A stretch of 64,000 bases of DNA from Oscillospiraceae bacterium (lineage in GTDB: Bacteria > Bacillota > Clostridia > Oscillospirales > CAG-382): positions 12,406-76,405 of the forward strand of contig SVTM01000008.1 in assembly GCA_015063785.1 (NCBI GenBank). The letters run 5' to 3'. Each line of letters opens with the position of its first letter. The stretch's first letter is position 1. The position numbers and the translations under genes are program-made. The notes beneath the pieces were generated by a model that was not told where the DNA came from, searched no databases, and saw only the letters and a list, made by a program, of their open reading frames with translations. Shown here in pieces: positions 47,001-62,101 of this stretch.

Positions 47001-48339
47001 TTCCGATGGTGTCGGTAAGTGCAAGCTTCGCACCCGAATCATCTGCAGCTGCCTTGAGCACCCATGCGCCGTCGGTAAGTGTCATGCCTGTTGCGGTGTA
47101 AGGAACGGAAAGCCCGTTGTTCATTATGATCTGAAGAGATTTTGCCGTGCAGTTGCCTGCTCCGACATCGGCAATTTTGCCTACGCTTCCGCTGTCTATG
47201 ACAACAGAAAGATCCTGCATAGACCACGAGCCCGAACCGTTGCGCAGCTTGATGGTCTGTATTGTTGCGCCGTCAACATAAATGCCCTGGTCTCCCGCAA
47301 GAGTAACGGTGCCATCCCAACCGCCAAAAGCAACTTCGTTGTAATTTCCGGAAAGAAGCGAAATGGTGCCGGAATTGGACGAGCTGTAACGTCCCGATAC
47401 ATCAATATCAAGATTTCCCGCAGCAGCAATACCTGCATTTGCCGCAGTTCCCGCTCCGGTCTTTCTTGTTCTCAGATATGTGATATTTCCTTCGAACTTT
47501 GCGCTATGTCCATATGTAACAAAGTTTTTGCCGGTATTATATCCCTCGATAAGGGTAATATTCTTGAAAACAGACGGGCCCTTAAGCTCGAGATGATTTA
47601 TACCGAAGCAGAGTACCGAATCGGAAGCATCTCCGACGTAAGTGATAGTTCCCGTATGAGCAGGAACGTTGACATACTGAAGAACGTCCTGTTCGCCGCC
47701 GTATGTGTAAGGCGAGCTTGAACTTCTTGTGTAAACGGCATATTCGGCATTGCCGTCCTTGTCCTTACCGTCAAGAACGACGATCGTTCCGTCCTTGGTC
47801 GTGCCAATGATTTCGATGGCGCGTGCGATTGTCTTGACAGATGTTTCTTCTGTCAAGCCGTCGTTGGTGTCAGAACCATATTTATTCGAAACATATACCG
47901 ATCCGATCACAGGAGCTTTCTTTACGGTAAGCACCTCTTGATCGAGAATCTCGGTGTAAGTATCGTTGTCAAAAAGAACGATAGTCCATTCGCCCTCCTG
48001 CAGAGGCCATCCGCCGGGGGTATTCTTGGTTCTTGCCAGATAATGATCTTCACTGTTGAAAAATTCGGTGCTGAAAGTAACTGTTCCGCCGCCGACGGGA
48101 GCCAACTGCCAGCCGGAATGCTTATTTTCACCGACCGTCTGAGACGAATGATAAACGCAGATCCAGTCCTTGGCGTCTGTGTTTTCGCAAATTACATCGA
48201 AAACGGTGTTGCCGGGTTCGATGGTGGTGGGGTTGAGAGTGATCGAAGGTGCTGCGGCAGAGGTCGTGATGATCATCGGGAAAAGTCCCACGAGCATCGC
48301 GATGCACAAAAGCACCGACAAAAGCTTTGATCTTCTCAT
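44047..48339 (-). CDS. giant secreted protein B2: paralog of B1 with C-terminal metallophosphoesterase
   Basis: AAGGAG RBS and a signal peptide (MRRSKLLSVLLCIAMLVGLFPMIITTSAAA). Two repeat units (VYVSNKYGSDTNDG..., IVYVDAEKGSDFNNG...), B-repeats (GEFVGWTINGVSY, GKLFIGWVDENG) and phosphoesterase motifs LSDTHFN, VTGDAIDY, LGNHEP, FTHIP, CGHWHCD. Confidence 0.8.
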   Translation of the reverse strand: MRRSKLLSVLLCIAMLVGLFPMIITTSAAAPSITLNPTTIEPGNTVFDVICENTDAKDWICVYHSSQTVGENKHSGWQLAPVGGGTVTFSTEFFNSEDHYLARTKNTPGGWPLQEGEWTIVLFDNDTYTEILDQEVLTVKKAPVIGSVYVSNKYGSDTNDGLTEETSVKTIARAIEIIGTTKDGTIVVLDGKDKDGNAEYAVYTRSSSSPYTYGGEQDVLQYVNVPAHTGTITYVGDASDSVLCFGINHLELKGPSVFKNITLIEGYNTGKNFVTYGHSAKFEGNITYLRTRKTGAGTAANAGIAAAGNLDIDVSGRYSSSNSGTISLLSGNYNEVAFGGWDGTVTLAGDQGIYVDGATIQTIKLRNGSGSWSMQDLSVVIDSGSVGKIADVGAGNCTAKSLQIIMNNGLSVPYTATGMTLTDGAWVLKAAADDSGAKLALTDTIGSFEVIGEKIAVALSSSGVTYTSAEGILTVPAGEYTVTWTKELSGDQILVKYDGVIDTGYYVKGSTITLPTLSDNPAGEFVGWTINGVSYNGGDLFVLPEDEDEVNIVSVWNKIDDVAIVYVDAEKGSDFNNGASELAPFATLDAAIKAVDAAQASKRYVIIIGEQKITGSLAMHENMIIITGGSVNIYNESVAVNGPTTFEKITLNITKASKFIESAGHELVMGDGINFTTTASNILGASFHIGTYNTDGGRENFVHNSGKTRIVYVGAYYNTASRHKTAGADIVINGGDIDILRFGADGWTGGPTYGVDFTDDVNLTINGGTVKTVMEHSGTYAPTFGGAVQVILNNGIDVSIPEFSAADGFWLMKGEARDGSSLSTTDKAGEFKVSGDLTAVATSDNGEIYISASGILAVPTAGKYTVTYTDVVYYTNTGTEVEFLEDYSIAFNNLRHLEKDGKLFIGWVDENGNGVTSTDFKKGDKLFAKYVDCDFSDEGDFFIKGVQIRTIEPAGLRFIVEKTDALQDALDVTEYGSVIIPSEVLGTKKLELDTTYTFNGKNYSSKAVEGIRTFADTDDGIQYTVCVIDITEDYYRRNYTVRGYIKYTDANGAQKVIYTNSYATSLYTVAKEALKDTTISDSDRAYLATIKNYVDETLKQEYMNQTRTDIKGSSADPKTWIYQLGDGVMVREVEIDSGIPGSDVEIVQLSDTHFNYCTEEDLKDPVLASTWANRRAFRYPGTQTALLNSIEYASYSDQIVVTGDAIDYLSQGCVDLLYTYVWNPYPDTLIPLGNHEPVKKMQGTVAETTTVAERYEQLKKVWKHDVYYTEKILKNDEGTEKVMIIQMDNSQRKFWDHQVPLLEASIEKAKAKGLPILLFTHIPFITRNPADASMDAIRINDTTSSPANFYNDGNFISDTGTGATKQIYDLIAMNPDVVKAHFCGHWHCDFYTEIWSKNADGTDNKDVVIPQYILTGSSYDKGHALRITVK
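45139..45519 (-). other. shared ~130-140 aa module (copy in B2)
   Basis: FFIKGVQIRTIEPAGLRFIVEKTD...YGSVIIPSEVL...RTFADTDDGIQYTVCVIDITEDYYRRNYTVRGYIKYTDANG. Confidence 0.6.
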
Positions 48340-49440: not shown

Positions 49441-51531
49441 ATGGAAAGAATCGAAAAACTCCGTCTTGTCGCTCTCGATCACTATCCGAGAAACGACGAG
49501 TTTTATTATAATTTTTACAAAAAATACTCGGCCGACACCCGAGAATCGGAATATGAAAAATACGCCGATGCATACTATTATGCGCTTACAAATTTCACCC
49601 CCCACATTACCGACGGTGAGCTTATTGTGGGCGAAAGCGAACTTCTGATGAACGAGCGCGACTATGACGAATGGGAAAAGATATATCACCCCATCGCCGA
49701 CGAAAGAAACGGATTGGCAGGCCCCGGTCAGGATTCGCACATGGCAATAGACTACGAGCTTGTCTTAAAGAGCGGCCTGCGCGGTATAATAGAAAAGATC
49801 GACGGCCTTTTGCCCGACAGCTGCGGCGAAAAGAAAGAGTTTTACAACACCTGCAAAAAGTGCCTTGAAGCGGTGATCGTATATTCGGAAAACTATGCAA
49901 AAAAAGCACTCGAGCTTGCAGAAAAAGAAGAAAACGAAGAAAGAAAAGCCGAGCTTTACGACATTGCCCGTATATGCAAAAAAGTTCCTGCAGAACCTGC
50001 AGAATCTTTCCACGAAGCGGTGCAGGCAGTGCATTTTGTTTCGCATTGCCTTTCGATAAACCCATACCGCCTTGGATTGCAACAATTTCAGCTGGGTCAT
50101 CCCGACAGGTACCTTTTGCCATATTATCTCGAAGATACAAAAAACGGCATTCTTTCCAAAGAGCGCGCACAGCTTCTGCTTGACCTTTTGGGCATACAAA
50201 TAAATATGCGTGTTCCCAACGGACTTTCGTCGGGATATATGGTGGGCGGCCGCGACGAAAACGGCAAAGCCGTTGCCAACGACCTTACAGAAATGGGTAT
50301 GCAGGTAATTGACGACATCCGCCTTGTTTACCCCTCTGTCGGCCTTTGCTACACCACAGACACCGACGACAAATATCTTGAAAAAGCCTGCGAAATTCTT
50401 TCGCACGGAAGAAGTCATCCTGCAATTTTCGGCGACGAAACGATTACAAAAGGTCTTCTTTCTTATGGCGTTCCCAAAGAGCAGGCGTGCAATTATATCC
50501 ACAGCACCTGTGTCGAGATAACCCCCGTTGCGGCATCAAACGTGTGGGTGGCAAGCCCATATACCAATATGCCCCAGCTTCTGCTTGATGTGATGGACAA
50601 GGAATACGAAAGCTTTGACAGTCTTATCGATGCCCTATTTGCTCATCTCGATGCAAGGATAAAGGACAATTTTGAATGGCAGGACAGAGCAAGAAGAATA
50701 CGCAACAAAAATTCGATGAATCCCCTTCTCTCATGCTTTGTCAACGATTGTCTTGAAAGAGGGCTTGACATCGAAAAGGGCGGTGCCGTATACAACTGGA
50801 TAACCCCGAGTTTTGTGGGGGTTGCAAATCTTGTCGACTCGCTTTATGCGGTGAAAACGGTGGTTTTTGAAAAGAAGCTTTTAAGTATTTGCGAGTTCAA
50901 GAAAATAGTCGATGCGGATTTTGAAGGCAACGAAGTTCTTCGCCAGATGATACAAAACACCATTCCAAAATACGGCAACGACGATGACGATATCGACGGA
51001 TATTTCAGCCTTATCACAGATCACCTCGTATCGGAATGTAAAAAATACCAATCCATCCACTCGAACGCCAACATTATCCCCAGCGTTTTCTGCTGGATAA
51101 TGCACGAATGGTTCGGAAGAGAAACGGGTGCTACCCCCGACGGCAGATGTGCAGGTTTCCCCCTTGGCGACGGCTCGGGTCCCTGCCAGGGAAGAGAAAT
51201 GAAAGGTCCGACGGCATCTGTTCTTTCGTCGACAAAGTGGGATCACCACGAGCTTATCGGCGGTGTGGCCGTGAATATGAAATTCTCAAAAAAATCACTG
51301 GGCAAGGGTTCGATCGAAACCATGAAAAACATCGTGAAAACATATATTTCCCGTGGCGGATTTGAGATGCAGATAAACGTTATCGACAAAGAAACACTGG
51401 AAAAAGCCGTTGAAAATCCCGAGCAGTACAAGGATCTTGTGGTGCGCATCGGCGGCTACAGCGATTATTTCACCCGAATCTCGCCACAGATGCAAAAGGA
51501 AGTTATTCTTCGAACGGAGCACGAGATATAA
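49441..51531 (+). CDS. glycyl radical enzyme, short form (GRE1; Cys-x-Glu eliminase-type loop)
   Basis: AAGGAG RBS. C-terminal glycyl-radical motif VVRIGGYSDYF (Gly codon 51454..51456). Thiyl loop HSTCVEITP (Cys codon 50509..50511). Only 696 aa. Confidence 0.85.
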   Translation: MERIEKLRLVALDHYPRNDEFYYNFYKKYSADTRESEYEKYADAYYYALTNFTPHITDGELIVGESELLMNERDYDEWEKIYHPIADERNGLAGPGQDSHMAIDYELVLKSGLRGIIEKIDGLLPDSCGEKKEFYNTCKKCLEAVIVYSENYAKKALELAEKEENEERKAELYDIARICKKVPAEPAESFHEAVQAVHFVSHCLSINPYRLGLQQFQLGHPDRYLLPYYLEDTKNGILSKERAQLLLDLLGIQINMRVPNGLSSGYMVGGRDENGKAVANDLTEMGMQVIDDIRLVYPSVGLCYTTDTDDKYLEKACEILSHGRSHPAIFGDETITKGLLSYGVPKEQACNYIHSTCVEITPVAASNVWVASPYTNMPQLLLDVMDKEYESFDSLIDALFAHLDARIKDNFEWQDRARRIRNKNSMNPLLSCFVNDCLERGLDIEKGGAVYNWITPSFVGVANLVDSLYAVKTVVFEKKLLSICEFKKIVDADFEGNEVLRQMIQNTIPKYGNDDDDIDGYFSLITDHLVSECKKYQSIHSNANIIPSVFCWIMHEWFGRETGATPDGRCAGFPLGDGSGPCQGREMKGPTASVLSSTKWDHHELIGGVAVNMKFSKKSLGKGSIETMKNIVKTYISRGGFEMQINVIDKETLEKAVENPEQYKDLVVRIGGYSDYFTRISPQMQKEVILRTEHEI

Positions 51532-52430
51532 TGACAGGCAAGATATTCAATATTCAGCGGTTCAGCACCTCGGACGGGCCGGGCATACGTACCACCGTTT
51601 TCTTCAAGGGGTGTCCCCTTTCGTGCGTGTGGTGTCACAATCCCGAATCGCACGCGGCAAAAAGCGAGATTTTTTACGATGCAAAAAAGTGCATCGGCTG
51701 TCGCCTTTGTGAAAAGGTCTGCCCGAACATATGCCACAAGTTCGGTGAAAGCGGTCATGTTTTTGTGCGCGAAAACTGCGAAAAATGCGGCGAATGTGCC
51801 AAGGTATGCCCTGCGAAATCGCTTGAAATATGCGGCGAGGAAATGAGCGCCGACAAAGTGATGGAAACGGTGATGCGCGATCTGCCCTTTTACGAGCAGT
51901 CGGGCGGCGGACTTACCCTTTCGGGAGGCGAGCCTCTGGCACAGTTTGATTTTGCCCTTGAGCTCCTTAAAAAAGCAAAAGAAAACGGGATTTCCACCGC
52001 CGTTGAGACCTCGGGCTTTTGCAGACGCGATCTTGCGGACATGGCAAAATACGTTGATCTCTGGCTTTTTGACATAAAGCTTTTTGACAAGGACGAACAC
52101 GAAAAATACACAGGTGTTTCAAACGAGTTGATTTTTGAGAATCTGCGGTGTCTTGACGGTTTTGGCGCAAAGATCATTCTGCGTTGCCCGATAATTCCCG
52201 ACATAAACCTCGAAAGAGCGCATTTTGAAAAAATAGCCGAGCTTGCAAACAGCCTTGAAAACGTGATTGCCGTAAATCTTGAGCCATACCATCCTTTGGG
52301 AATTTCAAAATCAAATCTTCTCGGCAAAAATCCAAAGTTTGAAAACGAAGATTTTTTGCCCAAAGAAGAGCTTTTGCGTTTTGCAGACATAATATCTGCC
52401 ACTTCGGATGTGAAAGTGGAAATAGAATAG
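51531..52430 (+). CDS. glycyl-radical enzyme activating protein (radical SAM)
   Basis: Radical-SAM cluster motif CPLSCVWCHNPES plus two ferredoxin-like CxxCxxCxxxC motifs (CIGCRLCEKVCP, CEKCGECAKVCP). TAATG overlap with the GRE1 stop. Confidence 0.9.
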   Translation: MTGKIFNIQRFSTSDGPGIRTTVFFKGCPLSCVWCHNPESHAAKSEIFYDAKKCIGCRLCEKVCPNICHKFGESGHVFVRENCEKCGECAKVCPAKSLEICGEEMSADKVMETVMRDLPFYEQSGGGLTLSGGEPLAQFDFALELLKKAKENGISTAVETSGFCRRDLADMAKYVDLWLFDIKLFDKDEHEKYTGVSNELIFENLRCLDGFGAKIILRCPIIPDINLERAHFEKIAELANSLENVIAVNLEPYHPLGISKSNLLGKNPKFENEDFLPKEELLRFADIISATSDVKVEIE

Positions 52431-52570: not shown

Positions 52571-53830
52571 ATGATAAACGTCAACGATCATATCGGCAAA
52601 ACCGACAGCGAAACTTTTGAAAACGCCATGAAAAACAAAGGGGCAGACGGAATCGTGATCGTTCCTCCCAGAGTGTCCGACATTGAACCCGACCGAAAAT
52701 TCTGGCTGATCGACCGTGCCATTCTTCTTGAAGAAAACACCACGATCATCATGCAGAACAGCACGATAAAGCTTTCGGACAACTGCCGCGACAACTTTTT
52801 CAGAAGCGCAAACTGCGGACTTGGAATCCCCTTTCCCGAAAGAATACACAACATACATATAAAAGGCGAAGGTCTTTGCACTCTTGTCGGCGCAGACCAC
52901 CCGAGAGCCGTGGGCGACAGCTCGAAAATACTTGCCAACCCCTGTCCTTACGAGGTTGACGACCTGATAGCCCTTGCGGACTGGATCCCCCCTGAAAGAA
53001 AAACCCACGAAACCATGGATTTTTGGGACAGACACAACCATTCCTACGGCACCGATGCGGGAAAAGAAGGCGAGTCGCAATATGGCGACTGGCGCGGAAT
53101 AGGCGTTCTTTTTGCAAACGTCGAGGATTTTTCGATCTCAAACATCCGCATCGTGGAGTCGCACGGTTGGGGAATTTCGCTGGAAGAATGCGCAAAGGGC
53201 AGAATAGAAAAGATCGATTTTGATGCCTGCATGTCAAAGGTTATTGACGGGCTTCGCAACAATATGGAAAACCAGGACGGCATCGACCTGCGAAACGGAT
53301 GCCACGATATCATAATTTCAGATATCACGGGAAAAACAGGTGACGACGTGGTTGCTCTTACCGCCATTGCAGATCCCGATTATCTCCCCGGCGGAAGCCT
53401 GCGCACCACCCACGTAATGCACAACGACTGGACAAAGCGCGACAGAAACATACACAACATTATCATCAAAAACGTTATGGCAACGTCTGATCTTTGCTTT
53501 ATCGTAAGACTTTTGCCCGCAAACGCAAAGATCTGGAACGTGGTCATCGACGGCATTGTCGATACCACCCCCGATGATCGCACCCACGGCGCCACGATAC
53601 TTTTCGGCGACGACGGATACGGAAAAAATCCCGAGGACGGTCTGCGCTATATCACCCTTTCAAACGTTGTCTGCAAGGCAGAATGCGGCATCGACATCTC
53701 CGGTTATCTGAAAGATTCGATCATAACAAACATAATCAACAAAAACCCCAACGCCCCCACCGTCATTGTCCGCAAGGAAAACGGACTTTGCAACGTGAAG
53801 TTTGGCGAGGAAATAAAGGTTTTGAACTGA
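52571..53830 (+). CDS. pectate-lyase-fold / GH28-like glycosidase, cytoplasmic
   Basis: AAGGAG RBS. The N-terminus resembles the Pectate_lyase_3 type. NQDGIDL and TGDDVVALTA resemble the GH28 N-T-D-G-x-D and G-D-D-x-x-A catalytic blocks. No signal peptide. Confidence 0.5.
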   Translation: MINVNDHIGKTDSETFENAMKNKGADGIVIVPPRVSDIEPDRKFWLIDRAILLEENTTIIMQNSTIKLSDNCRDNFFRSANCGLGIPFPERIHNIHIKGEGLCTLVGADHPRAVGDSSKILANPCPYEVDDLIALADWIPPERKTHETMDFWDRHNHSYGTDAGKEGESQYGDWRGIGVLFANVEDFSISNIRIVESHGWGISLEECAKGRIEKIDFDACMSKVIDGLRNNMENQDGIDLRNGCHDIIISDITGKTGDDVVALTAIADPDYLPGGSLRTTHVMHNDWTKRDRNIHNIIIKNVMATSDLCFIVRLLPANAKIWNVVIDGIVDTTPDDRTHGATILFGDDGYGKNPEDGLRYITLSNVVCKAECGIDISGYLKDSIITNIINKNPNAPTVIVRKENGLCNVKFGEEIKVLN

Positions 53831-53843
53831 GCTTTATTAAAAC

Positions 53844-53870
53844 AAAAATCCACCTTCCGGTGGATTTTTT
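53844..53870. terminator. bidirectional terminator (GH28-like / ADH convergent)
   Basis: AAAAATCCACC-ttcc-GGTGGATTTTT. Confidence 0.8.
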
Positions 53871-53887: not shown

Positions 53888-54982
53888 TCAGCGCACAAGC
53901 AACGTCTTGATGTTTTTGCCGCTTTTGGCATCTGCCACCGCTTCATTTATCTTTTCAATGGGATAATAGCTTGATATCTCGCGTACCATGGGAAAAACAT
54001 CCTCGTTTTTGCTCATAAATTCCACGTATTTTTCAACGTCACACACGGAATACTGGGAAGAACCGATGATATGAAGCGCCTTGAAGGTAATAAGTTGGGG
54101 CGAAAGTTCCACTGTTCCCGAAGCGCTGTATTGACCCGGAACAAGATACACTCCGCGGTTGCGCAGAATATCGATGCCCTGAATAAACGCCTGCGGTGCG
54201 CCCGAAGCTTCAAAGCAAAGGTCAACTCCGATACCGCCGTTTTCTGACTGCAAAGCTTTTATAACGTTTTCGGCGCCATCCTTTGAAAGGCTAAAGACCT
54301 TGTCTGCACCAATTTTTTTTGCCATTTCATCACGCTTTTCGTTTGCACCGGCAATGATGACATAAACCTTCTTGACACCAAGCTTTTTAAGGTACATGGT
54401 GGCAAATGCACCCACGGGGCCAAATCCTTGAACCACGGCACAATCGATCTTTGAAAGGTCAACGCCCGCTTTTGCCGCCAGCGAAAAGGCGTGTATCGCC
54501 GTGGGACCGGGGCAGGCAAAAACTGCCGCCGCCGAAGGATCAACGTTTTTCGGCAATTTTATAAGATTTGTAAGCGGAGTAAAATTCACCTGCGTGTATC
54601 CGCCGTAAAGATATGGAGGCTCGTCGATGCTTCCGCCGTTTGTTACCGCCATATTCACACAGTTGGCATCATCGCCGTTTTCGCACAGCTTGCATTTTCC
54701 GCAAGGAACAGCAATGTCGGCAATAACGGCATCGCCTTTGGAAAGGCCGTATTTTTCCGCCTCTTTTTCGTCAACGTCAATTATACGTCCCACAAATTCA
54801 TGACCTATTATCGAAGGATATGAAACGCCGAGCTTTCCGTTGTGCATGTGGATATCGGTTCCGCAGATGCCGCTGGCAATGATCTCCATTGCGGCATAGC
54901 CCGACGGTGCTTTCACCACGTCAAATTCGCGTATATCAAAATCCTTGTGTGCTCCCATAAATACTGCAGCCTTTGCTTTCAT
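53888..54982 (-). CDS. zinc-dependent medium-chain alcohol/polyol dehydrogenase
   Basis: GICGTDIHMHNG and GHEFVGRI zinc-ligand motifs, a structural-zinc Cys cluster (CGKCKLCENGDDANC) and Rossmann VVQGFGPVG. It starts 28 nt after the GRE2 stop. Confidence 0.85.
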   Translation of the reverse strand: MKAKAAVFMGAHKDFDIREFDVVKAPSGYAAMEIIASGICGTDIHMHNGKLGVSYPSIIGHEFVGRIIDVDEKEAEKYGLSKGDAVIADIAVPCGKCKLCENGDDANCVNMAVTNGGSIDEPPYLYGGYTQVNFTPLTNLIKLPKNVDPSAAAVFACPGPTAIHAFSLAAKAGVDLSKIDCAVVQGFGPVGAFATMYLKKLGVKKVYVIIAGANEKRDEMAKKIGADKVFSLSKDGAENVIKALQSENGGIGVDLCFEASGAPQAFIQGIDILRNRGVYLVPGQYSASGTVELSPQLITFKALHIIGSSQYSVCDVEKYVEFMSKNEDVFPMVREISSYYPIEKINEAVADAKSGKNIKTLLVR

Positions 54983-55010
54983 GATATATACTCCTTTTTG
55001 TTTTCGATTT

Positions 55011-57116
55011 TTATTCGTGCTGGGTACGGTTGAGGATATCTTTTTGCACTTCCTTTGAAAGATTCACGTATATTGCCGAGAATCCCGACACTCTCACCAC
55101 AAGATTTTTGTAATTTTCCGGATGCACCATCGCTTTTTCCAGGGTATCTCTCGATGTGGCATTTATCTGTATCTCCTGACCGCCAAGCTTAAAATACGTC
55201 CTCACCATAGCCCGCAGCTTTGCAAGGTTGTTATCCGAAAAGCTCGAGGGGGAATATTTTTGATTGACCACGCTTCCGCAGGCAACCTTGGTATAATCGG
55301 GCTTGGAAACACTTTTTATCGCGGCGGTGGCGCCGTTTGAATCCCTTCCGTAGGTGGGAGAAGCGGCATCTGACAAAGGTTCGCCGCGATGTCTTCCGTC
55401 GGGGGTCGCGTTTATCGTCTGACCGGCATATATATTACTCACATTTGCCGCCGCGGCTATATATATACCTCCGCCGTCGCGGGTCTTGTATTTTTCAAAA
55501 ACTCCGGCGAGAAAATCTATGAACCAAACGGCATATTTGTCAACAAAATCATCGTCATTTCCGTATTTGGGTGCCAAAACAAGCTTTCTGCGCAATTCCT
55601 CATATCCATCAAAATCCGCATTCAGCGCAGCTTTCAGTTCGGAAAGAGATGCGCTTTTGTCTTCAAACACCACTTTTTCTATGGCGGCAAGAGAGTCAGC
55701 GGTGGTTCCGATACCCATGAGTGCCACTCCATGCACCGAAGGATAGACAGAGCCGCCGTCGTTTATATCAAGACCTCTGCCGATGCAGTCATGGCAGAAA
55801 CAGGACAAAAAGGGCTCGGGGAAATATTTTTGGTTGATCTTGTTGTTGCAATTATTGAAGGACGCCATATATGCCGACGCTGAATATTCAAGCTGTTTTT
55901 CAAAAGCAGCCATAAATTCTTCCATCGACTTTATATCTTCCACATTTCCCATATCAAGTCCCATTGATCCGTCGATCTTGCAAACTCCGTTGTTGAAGAT
56001 ATAATCAAAGCAGCGCGGCGGATCAAAACGTCCGTCAGACCACGGCGGCTGCATACCCGTGATGAAATTTTCAATACAACCTACCATTGAGTAATTGTAT
56101 ATATCCTTTTCGGCATAACCGTATTTTTTCAAGGCGGCAATGTTTATATCATCATTCATCATAGCGGGATATCCAAGGCCTGTGCCAATGGTTTTTAAGC
56201 ATTCGTCAAGAAAATCGTCCGGCAAATTTTCAGTATAGCGCAACGAAAGATTGGGGCCGGGAACATTACAGTTTTTAACAGCTTTCAGAATACAGCAAGA
56301 CAGCCTGTTTATATCACAGCTTCCGTCGGGACTTTTACCGCCGATACAGATATTCACCACGTCGTTCTGAAGTTTTATAAATACGTTTTCAAGAAGTCCT
56401 GTTGCCTGATCTTCTGTTAAAATCCCTTTTTCAATATCGGCGGCAAAAAAAGGATACAAATATTGATCAAGCCTTCCCAGCGCCATGGCATAGCGCTCTT
56501 CCATCAAAAAGGCGGTGTGACAGAACCACACGAGTTGGAGCGCCTGAGCAAAGCTTTGTGGGCGTTCCGAAGCAACTGCACGGCAATTACCGATCATATA
56601 ATCAAGATATTCATCGTTGTATCCGTCTTTGTCCTTACACCTTTCTGCCTCGTCGGCATAACGGGAAATAAGGTGTGAAAAAGCACACATTGTTTTTCGC
56701 ATTCCCGAAAGGGTTTCGAGCTTTTCAGGATCGTGGGAATACTCCTTCAGCGATGAATCTATCTTTTCAATGATCCCATTTATACCCAGCGTAAGTATTT
56801 GATCGTAATTGGGAGCATAATGATCTTTGTTGGTAATAAAATCACGACTGCCAAAGCCATCAACAACCTTTTTTGCCGCGGCAAGTGTTTGATCATCCTT
56901 GTCGGTGTAAAGCAGTTTTGTATTTCCTGCGATGATCTCGTTTTTCAAAACCACAGGTGCAGTCTTTTCAAAAAGCGCACATATCCCGTTTGCCCGAAGC
57001 TTTGCGGGACACGCCGCAAGATCCTGTGCATAGCCGATGTATCGGAAATAATACGGGGCAAATATGCCACAGGATTCTTCACATAATTCGTTGTTAAGTT
57101 TTTCAAAAAGCTTCAT
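55011..57116 (-). CDS. glycyl radical enzyme, short form (GRE2), no adjacent activase
   Basis: GAGGGA RBS before ATG 57116. Glycyl motif VVRVSGFSAIY (Gly codon 55083..55085). Thiyl loop MVGCIENF (Cys codon 56076..56078). About 701 aa. Confidence 0.85.
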   Translation of the reverse strand: MKLFEKLNNELCEESCGIFAPYYFRYIGYAQDLAACPAKLRANGICALFEKTAPVVLKNEIIAGNTKLLYTDKDDQTLAAAKKVVDGFGSRDFITNKDHYAPNYDQILTLGINGIIEKIDSSLKEYSHDPEKLETLSGMRKTMCAFSHLISRYADEAERCKDKDGYNDEYLDYMIGNCRAVASERPQSFAQALQLVWFCHTAFLMEERYAMALGRLDQYLYPFFAADIEKGILTEDQATGLLENVFIKLQNDVVNICIGGKSPDGSCDINRLSCCILKAVKNCNVPGPNLSLRYTENLPDDFLDECLKTIGTGLGYPAMMNDDINIAALKKYGYAEKDIYNYSMVGCIENFITGMQPPWSDGRFDPPRCFDYIFNNGVCKIDGSMGLDMGNVEDIKSMEEFMAAFEKQLEYSASAYMASFNNCNNKINQKYFPEPFLSCFCHDCIGRGLDINDGGSVYPSVHGVALMGIGTTADSLAAIEKVVFEDKSASLSELKAALNADFDGYEELRRKLVLAPKYGNDDDFVDKYAVWFIDFLAGVFEKYKTRDGGGIYIAAAANVSNIYAGQTINATPDGRHRGEPLSDAASPTYGRDSNGATAAIKSVSKPDYTKVACGSVVNQKYSPSSFSDNNLAKLRAMVRTYFKLGGQEIQINATSRDTLEKAMVHPENYKNLVVRVSGFSAIYVNLSKEVQKDILNRTQHE

Positions 57117-57241
57117 GAGAGATCCCTCGTTTCTCATATATTCTTTATTTTCATTTTACCATTTCAAAAAAACTTGTAAATAGACGCAATTAACATTCTT
57201 GACAAAATTAATATTATTTGTTAAACTTGATATGAGGTGGT

Positions 57242-58041
57242 ATGATGAAAAAGATCGAGGCTTTAACAATGCCAGAATTACACTTTGCCCATAGATTTGA
57301 GGCAGAATCCTACAAGCATTCTTTTGTCAACACAGGTGAGCTTCTTGAAATAACATATATTGCAGAAGGCTCGTTGAACATAAATATCGGCAACGAAACC
57401 TTTAAAGCAAACAAGGGCGATATCATCTGCTTTTTTCACGACGAAGGAGCAACAGTCACCTCCGATTCCTTTCATCGGCCCACACGGTCGGAGCATCATT
57501 TGACTACTGCTGTTCCGAAAGCCCCGACAGCATACATCTGCCGCTGATAGTTTGCGAAAAAAACGGCACAGACAAGATCTGCCGCATGATCGACGAGATA
57601 ATAGGTGACAGCGCCGCTATGAAAGCATCTTGCACAAAATTCGCCGCAAGATTTTTCGGTCTGCTTCTGAACATCGATGCGGTTTACAAAAGATGTGTTC
57701 TTCTTGTTCCCGGAGAAGAGCTTTACGTCAGAAAAATAAAGGAGTACGTAAACAGCAATATCCATCTGCCCATATCCCAAAAAAACGCCGCAGAGCATCT
57801 TGGAATATCCCCCGGATATCTTTGTAATATATTCAAAAAAAATACGGGCATACCATTTATGAAATACGTCAACAGAATAAAGCTTGAAAATATCAAATCA
57901 ATAATGGACAGAGAAAATATTCCTCTTTACAAAGCCGCCTCACTGTACGGGTATTCCGACGCCAACTATGTCAGCAGGCTTTATTCGCAGATGTTTGGGT
58001 ATAGTATAACAAAAAAGCTCAATTCTGCAAAGGAGATATGA
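57242..58041 (+). pseudogene. AraC family regulator interrupted by a frameshift (or sequencing error)
   Basis: The cupin half is in frame 2 (57242..57547, sensible up to ...GATVTSDSFH). The HTH half is in frame 1 (open from 57406; ...HTVGASFDYCCSESPDSIHLPLIVCEKNG...MIDEIIG to 58041). The frames switch around 57470..57482, consistent with a 1-nt deletion. Confidence 0.6.
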
Positions 58042-58677: not shown

Positions 58678-59517
58678 TTACCTTTCGGGCAAATAAAGCC
58701 TTTTGTATTCAGCGGGCGTTTTGTTAAAACACGCTTTGAAGCATTTTGAAAAATAAGCGGGGTCAGAAAATCCGCACGCTTTTCCTATTTCATTGATAGA
58801 AAGATTGGATTGCAACAACATATTCTTGGCATAAAACAATCTTGTTTCGTTAAGGTAGTGATTTGGAGTGGTGGAAAGCTCTTTTTTGAAAAGACGTATC
58901 AAATAGCTTTTGTTCAGATGCACTTCTCCCGATATGTCATCAAGGGATATGTTTTTTTGATAATTTTCGTTTATAAAACGGCACGCTCTTTCGATATGGC
59001 TTTTTTGCGAGGCTTCTACCACCTTTCTTTTATATCTGTGCACGTCGCTCAAAACCAGAAGCAAAAACTCTGTGATATACTTTTTTTGTTCTTCGGGATT
59101 GATTATGCTCGGATATGAACAGCTTATCATTCTTTTATAAATTTCAAGCAATTCTTCCTGATGGTACGGGTAAAAAGTATCGGGGATCTCGTCGAGCAAA
59201 GGCATTTCCACCGTCGGCTGCTGCGGAGTATCTCTGTGTCTCAGATATACGTCGGGCGGAATGTTGACGGTGTGGCTGAAATCAAGAGAAAGTGTATAAC
59301 AGTCGTAATCTCCGTATCCGACAACTATCTGACCCGGCTTTCTGAATACCAGAATACCTTTTGATATTTTATGATATCGGTCATCTATGTACATATCTCT
59401 TTCGCCGCTTAAATAAAAATCAAATTCGTAATCTTTAACACGGCGCATGTTTTTTATCGTGCTTTTCAGCTTGAAGTGATTGCATTGCAAAATGGTTGGA
59501 ATTATGAATTCTGACAT
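58678..59517 (-). CDS. AraC family transcriptional regulator
   Basis: GGGGGAGG RBS before ATG 59517. C-terminal HTH (LDDISGEVHLNKSYLIRLFKKELSTTPNHYL...GFSDPAYFSKCFKACFNKTPAEYK). Confidence 0.85.
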   Translation of the reverse strand: MSEFIIPTILQCNHFKLKSTIKNMRRVKDYEFDFYLSGERDMYIDDRYHKISKGILVFRKPGQIVVGYGDYDCYTLSLDFSHTVNIPPDVYLRHRDTPQQPTVEMPLLDEIPDTFYPYHQEELLEIYKRMISCSYPSIINPEEQKKYITEFLLLVLSDVHRYKRKVVEASQKSHIERACRFINENYQKNISLDDISGEVHLNKSYLIRLFKKELSTTPNHYLNETRLFYAKNMLLQSNLSINEIGKACGFSDPAYFSKCFKACFNKTPAEYKRLYLPER

Positions 59518-59647
59518 TTTCCTCCCCCTTTTTCTCAAGTATAATCCCGCGAAAACCAAATGTCAATATTTTTATATAAAAAGCACATTTTGTTGATTGA
59601 CTTTTTGCAAATAAAGGTATAAATTTATAGAAAAGAGATCGTGAAAG

Positions 59648-60610
59648 GTGGACAAAACAAGCTTGGGCAATATATATCTTGCCGCAGATTCCGGCGGCAG
59701 CAAAACCGTTTTTTTACTTGTGGACGAAAAAGGAACCGTATTAACCGAAGTAAAAACCGAAGGTATGGGGGCGGTCAGGGCAGGCGTGTTACCCATACGC
59801 GATATTATAAAAACAGCAAAAGAAAAAATTGATATTTTCGGCAAGCCGAAGGCGATCTTTTTATCCCTGGGCGGACCAAACACAAAAGAAGTTTATGATG
59901 AATTATCGACCGCATGGGAAAATATCCCCGTAGAAGTGGAACGTGAAGCCTGCGGCAACTCCATATTGAGAGCGGCAAAATATCTGGGGTGTTCCTCTTT
60001 TGTCATGTGCGGTACGGGAAGTACCGCGGTGGGGTTCAAGAACAACAAAAAAGTTTTTGCAGGAGGCTGGGGCCCCACATACGGCGACGGAGGCTCGGGC
60101 GGCGGAATCGGAAGCGAAGCTTTGAAAAAATTTTTGAGGCATCTGGACGGGTTTGATGATATAGGCGAGCTTTCGCAAATCTTTTCGGACGTAACCGACG
60201 GGCTTGATATTGAAAAATTTGAAGACCGAATGGAAGCAAAACAAAGAGCCCTTGACATAAGCAGAAGAGAGCTTGCGGCTCTGGCTCCGCAGATCTATCT
60301 TTTGGCGTTAAAGGGCAACAAATGCGCAAAAGAGCTGTATGCAAACGCCGCGCAAGAGATTGCCCTTATGGCAGATGCGGTTTGTGACAACGACAAGAAA
60401 AGTGCTGTGCTTATTTGCGGCGGTTTTTTTAAAAACAAGCCCGAATTTGTTTCGCAATGTGTAAAAGAATTTTCGCAAAAAAACGCGGCAACCCTTATCT
60501 ATAACGAATTTTTCAGTCCCATTGCGGCGGCTACGATATCTGTGCTTGTAAACAACACAGACGCGGATGAAAAAGTGATAAGAAAAATTATAAACGGAGG
60601 TACTGTATAA
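59648..60610 (+). CDS. BadF/BadG/BcrA/BcrD-type ATPase (N-acetylhexosamine kinase-like)
   Basis: ASKHA phosphate-1 motif YLAADSGGSKTVFLLVD, then GTGSTAVG and GGWGPTYGDGGSG blocks, as in GlcNAc-kinase-like proteins. GTG start. Confidence 0.7.
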   Translation: MDKTSLGNIYLAADSGGSKTVFLLVDEKGTVLTEVKTEGMGAVRAGVLPIRDIIKTAKEKIDIFGKPKAIFLSLGGPNTKEVYDELSTAWENIPVEVEREACGNSILRAAKYLGCSSFVMCGTGSTAVGFKNNKKVFAGGWGPTYGDGGSGGGIGSEALKKFLRHLDGFDDIGELSQIFSDVTDGLDIEKFEDRMEAKQRALDISRRELAALAPQIYLLALKGNKCAKELYANAAQEIALMADAVCDNDKKSAVLICGGFFKNKPEFVSQCVKEFSQKNAATLIYNEFFSPIAAATISVLVNNTDADEKVIRKIINGGTV

Positions 60611-60611
60611 A

Positions 60612-61307
60612 ATGGACAATGTAATTGAAAAACTCAAAGGCGGACTTATAGTTTCGTGTCAGGCTCGCCCCGGAAACCCATTAAGAGGGGCATCTCACAT
60701 GGCGGCAATGGCAAAAGCCGCCGCTCTCGGAGGAGCAAAAGCCATTCGTGCAGACGGCCCTGATGATATTGCCGCAATAAAAAGCGTGGTGGATCTTCCG
60801 ATCATCGGAATATACAAAACACAGCCGTCTCCCGAAATTCCATATATCACGCCTGATTTTGAACACGCAAAAGCGATTGCCGACCTCGGGGTTGAAATTG
60901 TTGCCGTTGATGCAACAAAAAGACCTCGCCCTGACGGCACAAATCCATGGGATCTTATCGCAAGAATAAAAAAAGAGCTCGGAGTGTTGGTTATGGCAGA
61001 CATTGCGACCTACGAGGAAGGAGTTCTTGCAGAAAAAGCAGGTGCCGATATAGTGGCAACTACCCTCAGCGGCTACACCACCTACACAACTCAAACAAAG
61101 GGACCCGATCTTGAGCTTGTTAAAAAACTCTCGGACACTCTTCGCGTTCCCGTGATTGCCGAAGGAAGATACGTTTCGCCGCAGGATCTTGCAGACGGGT
61201 TTGAAGCGGGAGCGCACGCTGTCGTTATAGGAAAGGCCATCACAAACGTCACCTTCATCACAGAGACATTGATAAAGGAGGCGCGTGAATGCTTACAGAA
61301 GAAATAA
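60612..61307 (+). CDS. nanE: N-acetylmannosamine-6-phosphate 2-epimerase
   Basis: GGLIVSCQARPGNPL, RADGPDDIAAIK and DLPIIGI blocks are typical NanE. GGAGG RBS. Confidence 0.85.
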   Translation: MDNVIEKLKGGLIVSCQARPGNPLRGASHMAAMAKAAALGGAKAIRADGPDDIAAIKSVVDLPIIGIYKTQPSPEIPYITPDFEHAKAIADLGVEIVAVDATKRPRPDGTNPWDLIARIKKELGVLVMADIATYEEGVLAEKAGADIVATTLSGYTTYTTQTKGPDLELVKKLSDTLRVPVIAEGRYVSPQDLADGFEAGAHAVVIGKAITNVTFITETLIKEARECLQKK

Positions 61308-62101
61308 ACGAAAAAAGCGTTGATATTGACAAAAAAAGCACCCTTGAAATGTTGCGCATCATAAACGAAGAAGACAAAACCGTTGCGTATGCGGTTGAAA
61401 AAGCCATTCCCCAAATCGAGGTGGCAATTGATGCCGTTTCGGAAAACATGAAAAACGGCGGTCGTCTGATCTATGTTGGCGCCGGAACCAGCGGCAGATT
61501 GGCGGTTCAGGATGCCGCAGAATGTACGGTTACTTACGGCGTTGAAAAAGGTACGGTAACGGCGATAATCGCCGGCGGAAAAAACGCCGTCTTCACTTCT
61601 TACGAAAACGTGGAGGATGATTTTGAAGCAGGCGCAAACGCCGTAAAAGAGCTTGATGTAACCGACAAGGACAGCATTGTCGGCATAAGCGCATCGGGCA
61701 CTGCGGCTTTTGTTTGCGGCGCATTGTCAGAAGGAAAAAGAGTCGGTTGTGTCACGATTGCTTTTTTGTGCAACGAGTCGGGCAGAATAACAGAATACGC
61801 CGATCATGCTATAAACGTAATAACAGGCCCCGAGGTGATCGGCGGTTCGACAAGAATGAAGGCGGGAACAGCGCAAAAACTGGTCTTGAATATGTTTAGC
61901 ACGATTGCCATGATAAAACTCGGCAGGGTAACGGGAAATCAGATGACCTACATGAAGCCGAGCAACAAAAAGCTTGTGAAAAGAGCAAGAAGCATTGTCG
62001 CTGAGGTTTGCAAAATTTCTTACGAGCAAGCAGACAGGCTTCTTTTGAAGTATGACAACGATATGCAAAAGGCCATCGAAGCTTTTGAAAAAGGAGAATA
62101 A
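61289..62101 (+). CDS. murQ: N-acetylmuramic acid 6-phosphate etherase-like SIS protein
   Basis: TEEINEKSVDIDKKSTLEMLRIINEED opening and the SIS block GGRLIYVGAGTSGRLAVQDAAEC are typical MurQ. It overlaps the nanE 3' end by 19 nt. Confidence 0.8.
   Translation: MLTEEINEKSVDIDKKSTLEMLRIINEEDKTVAYAVEKAIPQIEVAIDAVSENMKNGGRLIYVGAGTSGRLAVQDAAECTVTYGVEKGTVTAIIAGGKNAVFTSYENVEDDFEAGANAVKELDVTDKDSIVGISASGTAAFVCGALSEGKRVGCVTIAFLCNESGRITEYADHAINVITGPEVIGGSTRMKAGTAQKLVLNMFSTIAMIKLGRVTGNQMTYMKPSNKKLVKRARSIVAEVCKISYEQADRLLLKYDNDMQKAIEAFEKGE

What the first reader, a model, noticed from the sequence alone, without database searches (positions are those of the whole stretch)
53888..57116. Orphan GRE2 co-transcribed with a Zn-dependent dehydrogenase and lacking its own activase
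GRE2 has its thiyl Cys at ORF residue 354 and its radical Gly at residue 685. The MDR-type dehydrogenase follows after 28 nt with an AGGAG RBS and no intervening terminator. This is a dehydratase-then-reductase arrangement: GRE eliminases yield aldehydes or ketones that an ADH can reduce. The unit has no activase gene. The only one in the window is coupled to GRE1 on the opposite strand, 2.6 kb away. Either one activase serves two divergent GREs, or GRE2 depends on a distant gene.
Basis: partly seen in the sequence, partly recalled or inferred. Interest (0 to 1): 0.6.

Follow-up and report, generated by a model that had tools for sequence, protein, structure and literature searches.

The report
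Radical enzyme that lost its activator
This two-gene operon, a compact oxygen-sensitive radical enzyme plus a zinc dehydrogenase, has cleanly lost the small activating enzyme its relatives carry between the two genes, so it must borrow one, probably from the unrelated radical-enzyme operon next door.

Summary
GRE2 (55011-57116, minus strand) is an intact glycyl radical enzyme of 701 aa from the likely start (Cys347/Gly678). That equals residues 354/685 of the longer ORF. An MDR zinc dehydrogenase follows after 28 nt with an AAGGAG ribosome site and no terminator. The 64-kb window holds only one activase.

- **Activase lost:** Relatives show the ancestral operon was GRE2 - minimal 254-256-aa activase - ADH. 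Every sampled member of the surrounding clade keeps it, including the sister lineage. It is missing only in the window lineage and its 78%-identical relative, exactly where a GRE1-activase module lies alongside.
- **Still functional:** GRE2 stayed under strong purifying selection afterwards (dN/dS 0.08), so it is still used and must be activated in trans.
- **Favours the neighbour:** the timing of the loss, and an independent relative (L018) that pairs this activase type with a GRE2-family enzyme.
- **Against the neighbour:** the glycine loops differ (RVSGFSA vs RIGGYSD), the two units have unrelated AraC regulators, and earlier unchecked notes report a spare activase elsewhere in this genome.

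Unlinked activases are common in this uncharacterised family (15-17 of 37-39 informative loci). Interest is moderate.

The parts
55011..57116 (-). GRE2: compact (701 aa) glycyl radical enzyme of the CXE type. Cys347, Glu349, His99, Asp361 and Gly678 are invariant in the family.
   Evidence: Pfam PFL-like 439.8 bits and Gly_radical 96.3 bits. TIGR01774 scores 418.8, below its 678.2 cut-off. Best solved structure is 1R8W glycerol dehydratase, E 2e-101. The five residues are invariant in 161 family sequences. dN/dS against L081 is 0.084.
54983..55010 (-). 28-nt spacer with the AAGGAG ribosome site of the ADH. It sits where relatives carry a 254-256-aa activase gene.
   Evidence: Sequence read directly. 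Junctions compared with L167, L083, L086, L169 and L170, which read GRE2 stop, 4-8 nt, activase, 9-12 nt, ADH.
53888..54982 (-). MDR zinc-dependent dehydrogenase or reductase, the conserved operon partner of the GRE2 family. Probably NADPH-dependent.
   Evidence: ADH_N and ADH_zinc_N domains. No NCBIfam equivalog cut-off is reached. Zn ligands (GICGTD, GHE, CxxCxxCx7C) are intact, and Gly/Ala replaces the NAD-specifying Asp. It is adjacent to GRE2 homologues in most loci. dN/dS is 0.09.
57153..57180 (-). Promoter-like site (TTTACA-16-TAAAAT with a TG extension), 37 nt upstream of the GRE2 start.
   Evidence: Consensus scan. This is a pattern match only.
53844..53869 (.). Bidirectional intrinsic terminator that closes the GRE2-ADH operon and the convergent 419-aa gene.
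   Evidence: 11-bp stem with T-runs on both strands.
57242..58041 (+). AraC-family regulator divergent from GRE2. In this strain it is frameshifted by a 1-nt deletion near 57479 and so split into 101-aa and 151-aa ORFs.
   Evidence: Alignment with the intact genes of L001 and L081. Run X4, a variant strain, has the extra base, while an X2 contig agrees with the window. Pfam finds HTH_18 on the C-terminal piece only.
51531..52430 (+). The only GRE activase in the window. It has a ferredoxin-insert, is 299 aa long and is translationally coupled to GRE1. It is the candidate trans-activator of GRE2.
   Evidence: TIGR02494 scores 339.6 against a cut-off of 174.35. It is the sole tblastn hit in the window for 14 activase queries. 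It belongs to the GRE1-type activase clade, which also contains the activase linked to a GRE2-family gene in L018.
49441..51531 (+). GRE1: a second compact GRE (696 aa, Cys357 in TCVE, Gly672 in RIGGYS). It is 29% identical to GRE2 and is the cognate partner of the activase.
   Evidence: The family is rare, with 7 loci among GTDB species representatives.

Best explanation
**What it is.** GRE2-ADH is a functional two-gene catabolic operon. It has a sigma-70-like promoter, a divergent AraC regulator and a strong terminator.

**Its family.** GRE2 belongs to a large, uncharacterised family of compact (about 700 aa) glycyl radical enzymes from rumen and hindgut Clostridia.

**Likely chemistry (inferred).**
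- The invariant Cys347-x-Glu349 loop, His99 and Asp361 match the catalytic set of B12-independent glycerol dehydratase.
- The enzyme most likely abstracts a hydrogen from a hydroxylated substrate and eliminates water or another C-O leaving group.
- That gives a carbonyl product, which the co-transcribed, probably NADPH-dependent zinc dehydrogenase reduces.

**Loss of the activase (shown).**
- The ancestral operon was GRE2, a dedicated minimal activase of 254-256 aa without a ferredoxin insert, then ADH.
- In the common ancestor of this organism and its 78%-identical relative, the activase gene was cleanly deleted, leaving 28-30 nt.
- This happened in the one lineage where the operon lies tail-to-tail with a GRE1-activase module.
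- GRE2 has been kept under strong purifying selection since.

**Who activates it now (inferred).**
- GRE2 must be activated in trans by a non-cognate activase.
- The most likely donor is the neighbouring ferredoxin-type activase at 51531-52430, which would then serve two enzymes that are only 29% identical.
For: **Ancestral state and loss**
- The sister lineage P0031 (L167/L168) and P0011, P0012, P0117, P0096 and basal P0080 all read GRE2-activase(254-256 aa)-(ADH). Only the window, L001 and L081/L082 lack the activase.
- A further 9 loci, found by querying with the activase, all read GRE2-activase, with the ADH following in eight of them.

**GRE2 is still functional**
- dN/dS for GRE2, window against L081, is 0.084 at dS 1.7. 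For the ADH it is 0.093.
- The catalytic residues are invariant in 161 sequences.

**Points favouring the neighbouring activase**
- It is the only activase in the 64-kb window.
- Both activase-less lineages share the layout AraC | GRE2-ADH | 419-aa gene | activase-GRE1 | AraC | 1430-aa gene, despite saturated synonymous divergence.
- The sister lineage, which keeps its activase, has a different downstream neighbour.
- In the activase tree the window's activase groups with the GRE1-family activases and also with the activase of L018. L018 is an activase-ROK-GRE2-family gene cluster that lacks the dedicated type. This is an independent pairing of this activase type with a GRE2-family enzyme carrying the same RVSGFSA loop.
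- Within the family, the invariant loop is natively paired with three different activase forms.

**Operon structure**.
Against: **Against the neighbouring activase as donor**
- The Gly loops differ at 4 of 7 positions (RVSGFSA vs RIGGYSD).
- The 2026 GRE review reports cross-activation only between GREs with conserved Gly loops (PMC13450708 sec. 2.5).
- The activase is translationally coupled to GRE1 and sits under a different AraC regulator, which is unrelated to the one beside GRE2 (BLASTP E=14). Co-induction is therefore not built in.

**Other possible donors**
- The relative L081 carries an extra, intact, partner-less activase 2.7 kb upstream of GRE2. It comes from a third clade that normally follows another GRE family.
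- Earlier unchecked notes say this genome also has a monocistronic spare activase on another contig.
- 15-17 other family loci have no activase within reach at all, so distal activation is common.

**Gaps**
- The substrate and the direction of the ADH reaction are inferred only.
- CXE-type GREs also include isomerases.
- The whole genome could not be searched.
Confidence: 0.5

Rival explanations
1. GRE2 is activated by a distant, partner-less activase encoded elsewhere in the genome, not by the GRE1-coupled one. The genome would then keep a one-to-one count of radical enzymes and activases. The missing operon gene would in effect be replaced by an unlinked, separately regulated activase.
For: - The 78%-identical relative L081 has an intact monocistronic 296-aa activase with no GRE partner, 2.7 kb upstream of GRE2. 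Its clade normally sits directly after a third GRE family, so in L081 it is itself orphaned yet retained.
- Earlier first-reader notes on this same genome describe 'one GRE but two activases within 4 kb' on another contig. The second activase is monocistronic with its own terminator. I did not verify this.
- Many family members have no linked activase at all.
- The GRE1 and GRE2 Gly loops and their regulators differ.
Against: - No such activase is at the equivalent position in the window or in L001.
- Scans of species-representative genomes with the L081 extra activase and with a profile of the family's own activase did not return the conspecific MAG RGIG7446.
- This rival does not explain why the dedicated activase disappeared only in the lineage that has the GRE1-activase module alongside.
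Confidence: 0.33
2. In this particular strain the GRE2-ADH unit is on its way out. Having lost its activase and now its regulator, it is silent or non-functional even though the reading frames are still intact.
For: - The AraC gene divergent from GRE2 carries a 1-nt deletion in the window strain. That gene is intact in L001, L081 and a variant strain in run X4.
- No RNA-seq run holding the locus could be found.
Against: - GRE2 and the ADH are intact, with all catalytic residues.
- dN/dS is 0.17 (GRE2) and 0.09 (ADH) even against the 96%-identical L001, and 0.08-0.09 against L081. Selection therefore persisted long after the activase was lost.
- The frameshift is strain-level and recent.
- The C-terminal HTH fragment retains an ATG-initiated ORF.
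Confidence: 0.1
3. The missing activase is an assembly or binning artefact, and the real genome has GRE2-activase-ADH.
For: The window probably comes from a metagenome-derived assembly. Its closest relatives are MAGs.
Against: The same 28-30-nt junction is seen in:
- contigs of four runs, including a variant strain;
- an independent buffalo-colon MAG (L001);
- two independent assemblies of the 78% relative.
Confidence: 0.01

Closest known systems
B12-independent glycerol dehydratase system of Clostridium butyricum (DhaB1, activase DhaB2, reductase DhaT; PDB 1R8W/1R9D)
   Same: - It is the best solved-structure match (E 2e-101).
- GRE2 has the CXE loop, with Cys347/Glu349 matching Cys433/Glu435.
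- His99 matches His164 and Asp361 matches Asp447 in the alignment.
- The gene logic is the same: radical dehydratase, then activase, then alcohol dehydrogenase.
   Different: - GRE2 is about 85 residues shorter, mostly at the N-terminus.
- It scores far below the PFL2/GD subfamily cut-off (418.8 against 678.2).
- The residues aligned with GD His281/Ser282 are Tyr/Ala.
- The reductase is an MDR zinc enzyme, not an iron ADH.
- The family's own activase lacks the ferredoxin insert, and in this locus it is absent altogether.
E. coli PflA serving PflB, TdcE and GrcA (one activase, several glycyl radical proteins)
   Same: A GRE without its own activase gene is activated by an activase encoded with another GRE (PMC13450708 sec. 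2.5).
   Different: - PflB and TdcE are close paralogues with identical Gly loops (RVSGYAV).
- Here the two enzymes are 29% identical, with loops RVSGFSA and RIGGYSD.
- Sharing here would have replaced a previously dedicated activase.
GRE isomerases YbiW and PflD of anhydroglycolysis (PDB 8ID7, 8ID0, 8YJO)
   Same: - They are CXE-type GREs acting on sugar derivatives.
- They match at E about 1e-78 to 1e-84.
- GRE2-family loci likewise often sit among carbohydrate genes, including SASA and GDSL esterases, a rhamnosidase, ROK and an EamA transporter.
   Different: - Their products are isomers that go on to an aldolase, not to a dedicated reductase.
- They are about 800 aa long, each with its own activase.
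- There is no specific sequence relationship beyond the superfamily.
Compact GRE - minimal activase - Zn-ADH (- SASA esterase) operons of rumen and gut Clostridia
   Same: - It is the same protein family: 45-78% identity, about 700 aa, a VGCIEN loop and an RVSGFSA loop.
- It has the same ADH partner and the same divergent AraC regulator.
   Different: This locus and its 78% relative lack the minimal activase and instead lie beside a GRE1-activase module.

Membership tests
Glycyl radical enzyme superfamily (PFL-like) | PFL-like barrel domain plus a C-terminal glycine-radical domain with an RVxG[FYW] motif | tested here: met
   PF02901 scores 439.8 bits and PF01228 scores 96.3 bits. The RVSGFS motif with Gly678 is invariant in 161 relatives.
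Glycyl radical enzyme superfamily (PFL-like) | Catalytic thiyl cysteine on the Cys loop | tested here: met
   Cys347 in VGCIEN aligns with Cys433 of glycerol dehydratase. It is invariant.
Glycyl radical enzyme superfamily (PFL-like) | Post-translational installation of a glycyl radical by a radical-SAM activase | not testable with these tools
   This needs anaerobic co-expression and EPR. No linked activase is present.
GRE 1,2-eliminases (CXE class: GD, PD, HypD, CutC, IslA, HpsG/HpfG) | CXE motif, with Glu two residues after the catalytic Cys | tested here: met
   C347-I-E349 is invariant. The motif is shared with GRE isomerases, so it does not separate the two classes.
GRE 1,2-eliminases (CXE class: GD, PD, HypD, CutC, IslA, HpsG/HpfG) | Reaches the curated score of the PFL2/glycerol-dehydratase subfamily or of a characterised equivalog | tested here: not met
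   TIGR01774 scores 418.8 against 678.2. HypD scores 380 against 1100, CutC 363 against 1050 and HpsG 333 against 1000. This is a separate, uncurated subfamily.
B12-independent glycerol dehydratase | Proton donor His164, plus the substrate-contact residues I recall for GD (His281, Ser282, Asp447) | tested here: inconclusive
   The His164 and Asp447 equivalents (His99, Asp361) are invariant. The positions aligned with His281/Ser282 are Tyr/Ala. The role of His164 is taken from the review. The roles of the other residues are recalled from memory.
Medium-chain (MDR) zinc alcohol dehydrogenases | GroES-like and Rossmann domains, catalytic Zn ligands (Cys, His-Glu) and a structural Zn Cys4 motif | tested here: met
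   PF08240 and PF00107 are both found. GICGTD, GHE, CGKCKLCENGDDANC and GFGPVG are present. No equivalog cut-off is reached; the best is TIGR03366 at 138.8 against 328.1.
GRE-activating enzymes (for the neighbouring gene 51531-52430) | Radical-SAM CX3CX2C motif and the TIGR02494 family score | tested here: met
   TIGR02494 scores 339.6 against 174.35. CPLSCVWC is present, together with two ferredoxin-like Cys motifs.
Dedicated activase clade of the GRE2 family (254-256 aa, no ferredoxin insert) | A member of this clade encoded next to GRE2 | tested here: not met
   It is absent from the window, which has only one activase, of another clade. It is present in 29 relatives' loci.

The most novel reading that the evidence does not exclude
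A ferredoxin-type activase naturally serves two glycyl radical enzymes that are only 29% identical and have different glycine loops (RVSGFSA and RIGGYSD). It would have displaced the dedicated minimal activase of one of them. That would be a natural case of non-orthologous activase replacement and of broad activase specificity, something the field currently documents only for near-identical loops.
Probability: 0.4. Interest if true: 0.6.

Novelty: new variant of a known kind. Interest (0 to 1): 0.42.

Why it matters
How activases recognise their partner enzymes is described as little studied in the 2026 review of the superfamily. Obtaining a working activase is also a main obstacle to characterising new glycyl radical enzymes.

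This locus offers a defined, testable trio:
- the family's own minimal activase, taken from close relatives;
- a neighbouring non-cognate activase;
- possibly a spare third activase.

All three can be tested on one enzyme with an invariant glycine loop. If the neighbour works, it is a candidate broad-range activase for the abundant, uncharacterised compact GRE-ADH family of rumen and hindgut Clostridia. If it does not, the locus shows that unlinked activases are the rule in these genomes, and that counting linked activases is a poor guide to function.

Tried and rejected
The decisive inventory of activases in the window's own genome could not be made.
- No RNA run holds the locus, so co-transcription and co-induction are untested.
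- The metagenome-contig scan returned no relative closer than 55%. Close relatives had to be fetched one at a time.
- Scans of species-representative genomes with L081's extra activase and with a profile of the family's activase did not return the conspecific MAG.
- Looking up the L081 extra activase among earlier findings did not hit this genome.
- A protein search with the L081 extra activase showed an abundant clade. It could not identify this genome's spare activase.

**Ideas tested and rejected**
- Adaptation of the GRE2 glycine loop towards GRE1's after the loss: rejected, because the loop is invariant family-wide.
- The 419-aa gene between the units as part of the pathway: rejected as a conserved partner. 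Homologues at about 70% identity sit elsewhere with AraC genes and no GRE. It has no significant Pfam or PDB sequence hit itself, although many homologues carry a weak GH28 hit.
- The 57137 ATG as the start codon: rejected. It has no ribosome site and gives the wrong length.
- Assembly artefact: rejected.

**Literature**
- Literature searches found no paper on this compact GRE family or on orphan GREs of this kind.
Full report
**1. What is in the sequence**

The minus strand between 57180 and 53844 carries a compact unit.
- A promoter-like site, TTTACA-16-TAAAAT with a TG extension, lies at 57180-57153.
- GRE2 follows, then a 28-nt spacer containing AAGGAG, then a 364-aa MDR zinc dehydrogenase at 54982-53888.
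- An 11-bp-stem bidirectional terminator at 53869-53844 closes the unit.
- No hairpin lies between the two genes.

GRE2 has the PFL-like barrel domain (439.8 bits) and the glycine-radical domain (96.3 bits). Its thiyl loop is VGCIEN and its radical loop is RVSGFS.

It has a GAGGGA ribosome site and gives 701 aa, the length of virtually all 120 listed homologues. The residues are therefore better numbered Cys347 and Gly678.

A tblastn search of the whole window with 14 diverse activases finds only the gene at 51531-52430. That gene overlaps the stop codon of GRE1 (49441-51531).

**2. The absence is real**

Contigs from four public metagenome runs span the GRE2-ADH junction without an insert. 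Three are identical to the window and one is a variant strain. A buffalo-colon MAG (L001, 96% identity) has the identical junction. Two assemblies of a 78%-identical relative (L081, L082) have a 30-nt junction.

**3. What the family normally looks like**

GRE2 belongs to a large family from ruminant and other gut Clostridia. More than 1,200 database clusters match, and the members are about 700 aa long. Sources annotate them only as 'DUF3029 family protein' or 'formate C-acetyltransferase'. The family scores well below the curated cut-offs of the PFL2/glycerol-dehydratase subfamily and of every characterised equivalog.

I examined 57 non-redundant loci. The recurring core is a divergent AraC gene, the GRE, an activase and the zinc dehydrogenase. 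The usual activase is 254-256 aa and lacks the ferredoxin-like insert.

Recurrent but non-universal neighbours are:
- SASA and GDSL esterases;
- an EamA transporter;
- a rhamnosidase;
- ROK and GFO/IDH-type oxidoreductases.

The family's activases form one clade on an activase tree (SH-aLRT 98). Every member of that clade recovered by a profile scan again lay directly after a family GRE, with the ADH following in all but one of these loci.

**4. The activase was deleted in this lineage**

On a tree of 170 sequences, the window, L001 and P0003 group with L081/L082/P0004 (support 100). P0031 is their sister (support 96).

Every sampled lineage around this group reads GRE2 stop, 4-8 nt, activase, 9-12 nt, next gene:
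- the sister lineage P0031;
- P0011, P0012, P0117 and P0096;
- the basal P0080.

The next gene is the ADH in all of these except P0080 (L171), which has no ADH. Parsimony therefore places one clean deletion in the common ancestor of the window and L081.

That ancestor is also the only place in the sample where a GRE1-activase module lies alongside. Both descendants share the layout AraC | GRE2-ADH | 419-aa gene | activase-GRE1 | AraC | 1430-aa protein. The region beyond the GRE2-side AraC differs between them. The sister lineage has a different downstream neighbour.

**5. GRE2 is still in use**

| Gene | dN/dS, window vs L081 |
|---|---|
| GRE2 | 0.084 (dS 1.7) |
| ADH | 0.093 |
| GRE1 | 0.10 |
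| activase | 0.13 |

His99, Cys347, Glu349, Asp361 and the RVSGFS loop are invariant in 161 family sequences. An enzyme that could no longer receive its radical would not be conserved like this. GRE2 must therefore be activated in trans.

**6. Who activates it**

Evidence for the neighbouring activase:
- It is the only activase within reach in the window.
- The dedicated gene vanished exactly where this one became a neighbour.
- The arrangement has survived saturated synonymous divergence.
- On the activase tree the window's activase groups with all GRE1-family activases and with the activase of locus L018 (8 rows, support 91). L018 reads activase-ROK-GRE2-family gene and has no dedicated-type activase. 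This is an independent association of this activase type with a GRE2-family enzyme.
- The GRE2 glycine loop is invariant, yet within the family it is paired with three activase forms: minimal, insert-bearing (L007/L008) and GRE1-type (L018).

Evidence against it:
- The loops of GRE2 and GRE1 differ at four of seven positions. The 2026 review documents cross-activation only between enzymes with conserved loops (PMC13450708).
- The activase is coupled to GRE1 under an AraC regulator unrelated to the one beside GRE2.
- L081 carries an additional intact, partner-less activase 2.7 kb upstream of GRE2. It belongs to a clade that normally follows a third GRE family.
- Earlier first-reader notes report a spare monocistronic activase on another contig of this genome.
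- Loss of the linked activase is recurrent in the family. Among loci sampled through GRE2, 20 have an adjacent activase and 15 have none within the available flanks. Two more have none between GRE and ADH. These losses represent at least six independent events on the tree.

My odds are about 0.45-0.5 for the neighbour, 0.33 for a distant activase and 0.1 for a unit that is silent in this strain.

**7. Likely chemistry**

The best solved-structure match is B12-independent glycerol dehydratase (1R8W, E 2e-101). The catalytic Cys, Glu and proton-donor His that the review names for that enzyme are all conserved in GRE2. Two other residues that I recall as substrate contacts are replaced, by Tyr and Ala. 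The substrate is therefore something other than glycerol.

The dehydrogenase has intact catalytic and structural zinc sites. At the position of the NAD-specifying Asp of horse-liver ADH it has Gly or Ala, followed by a conserved Arg. By the established MDR rule this suggests NADPH and a reductive role. Its nearest solved relative is the uncharacterised TM0436 (1VJ0).

Dehydration or another C-O elimination followed by reduction is thus the best-supported reading. An isomerase reaction cannot be excluded, because isomerases keep the CXE motif.

**8. Comparison with what is known, and verdict**

The operon logic is that of the Clostridium butyricum glycerol dehydratase system. The activase situation resembles E. 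coli TdcE borrowing PflA, but here the two enzymes are only 29% identical.

The family itself is uncharacterised and was seen repeatedly elsewhere in this scan. The new element here is the documented, lineage-specific loss of its dedicated activase next to a foreign GRE-activase pair. That makes this a variant of a known kind. It is of moderate interest, chiefly as a ready-made test of activase specificity.

Noticed in passing
window 57242-58041 (+): The AraC regulator divergent from GRE2 is split by a 1-nt deletion near 57479. The gene is intact in L001, in L081 and in the variant strain of run X4. A contig from run X2 agrees with the window. The GRE2-ADH unit may therefore be mis-regulated in this strain.
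   Followed up: yes
L081 6421-7311 (-): In the 78%-identical relative, an intact monocistronic 296-aa activase with no GRE partner lies 2.7 kb upstream of the orphan GRE2. It sits between kdgK-eda and an epimerase-redoxin pair. Its clade normally sits directly after a third GRE family (27-30% identical to GRE2).
   Followed up: partly
L083 12112-12879; L167 2623-3387; L010, L017 and L027 likewise: The dedicated activases of this CXE-type GRE family are PflA-sized (254-256 aa) and lack the ferredoxin-like auxiliary-cluster insert that I recall as usual for eliminase activases. One sub-clade (L007/L008) has the insert.
   Followed up: partly
window 52571-53830 (+): This 419-aa protein lies between the two GRE units, with its own promoter-like site and terminators on both sides. 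It has no significant Pfam or PDB sequence hit itself, but many of its ~65-72%-identical homologues carry a weak Glyco_hydro_28 hit. Homologues elsewhere sit next to AraC genes without any GRE, so it looks like an independent cassette.
   Followed up: partly
L173, L174, L175 (GRE1 homologues, 61-64% identity): GRE1-family genes with the same divergent AraC have no activase beside them; L173 has none within 10 kb on either side, while L174 and L175 lie on short contigs. L176-L178 do have one. Unlinked activases therefore recur in this second compact GRE family as well.
   Followed up: partly
L015 10084-10977; L016 12224-13120: In one sub-clade a roughly 298-aa gene occupies the position between GRE and ADH where the activase usually sits. 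It was scanned in L016, where it is a GDSL-like esterase.
   Followed up: no
window 59648-62101 (+): Downstream of a third AraC gene (58678-59559) lies a small amino-sugar cassette: a BadF/BadG-type kinase-like ATPase, a NanE epimerase and a SIS-domain (MurQ/GKRP-like) protein. It is unrelated to the GRE units.
   Followed up: no
window 44047-48339 (-): A 1430-aa protein with only a weak C-terminal calcineurin-like phosphoesterase hit lies next to the GRE1-side AraC. A 1431-aa counterpart occupies the same position in L081.
   Followed up: no
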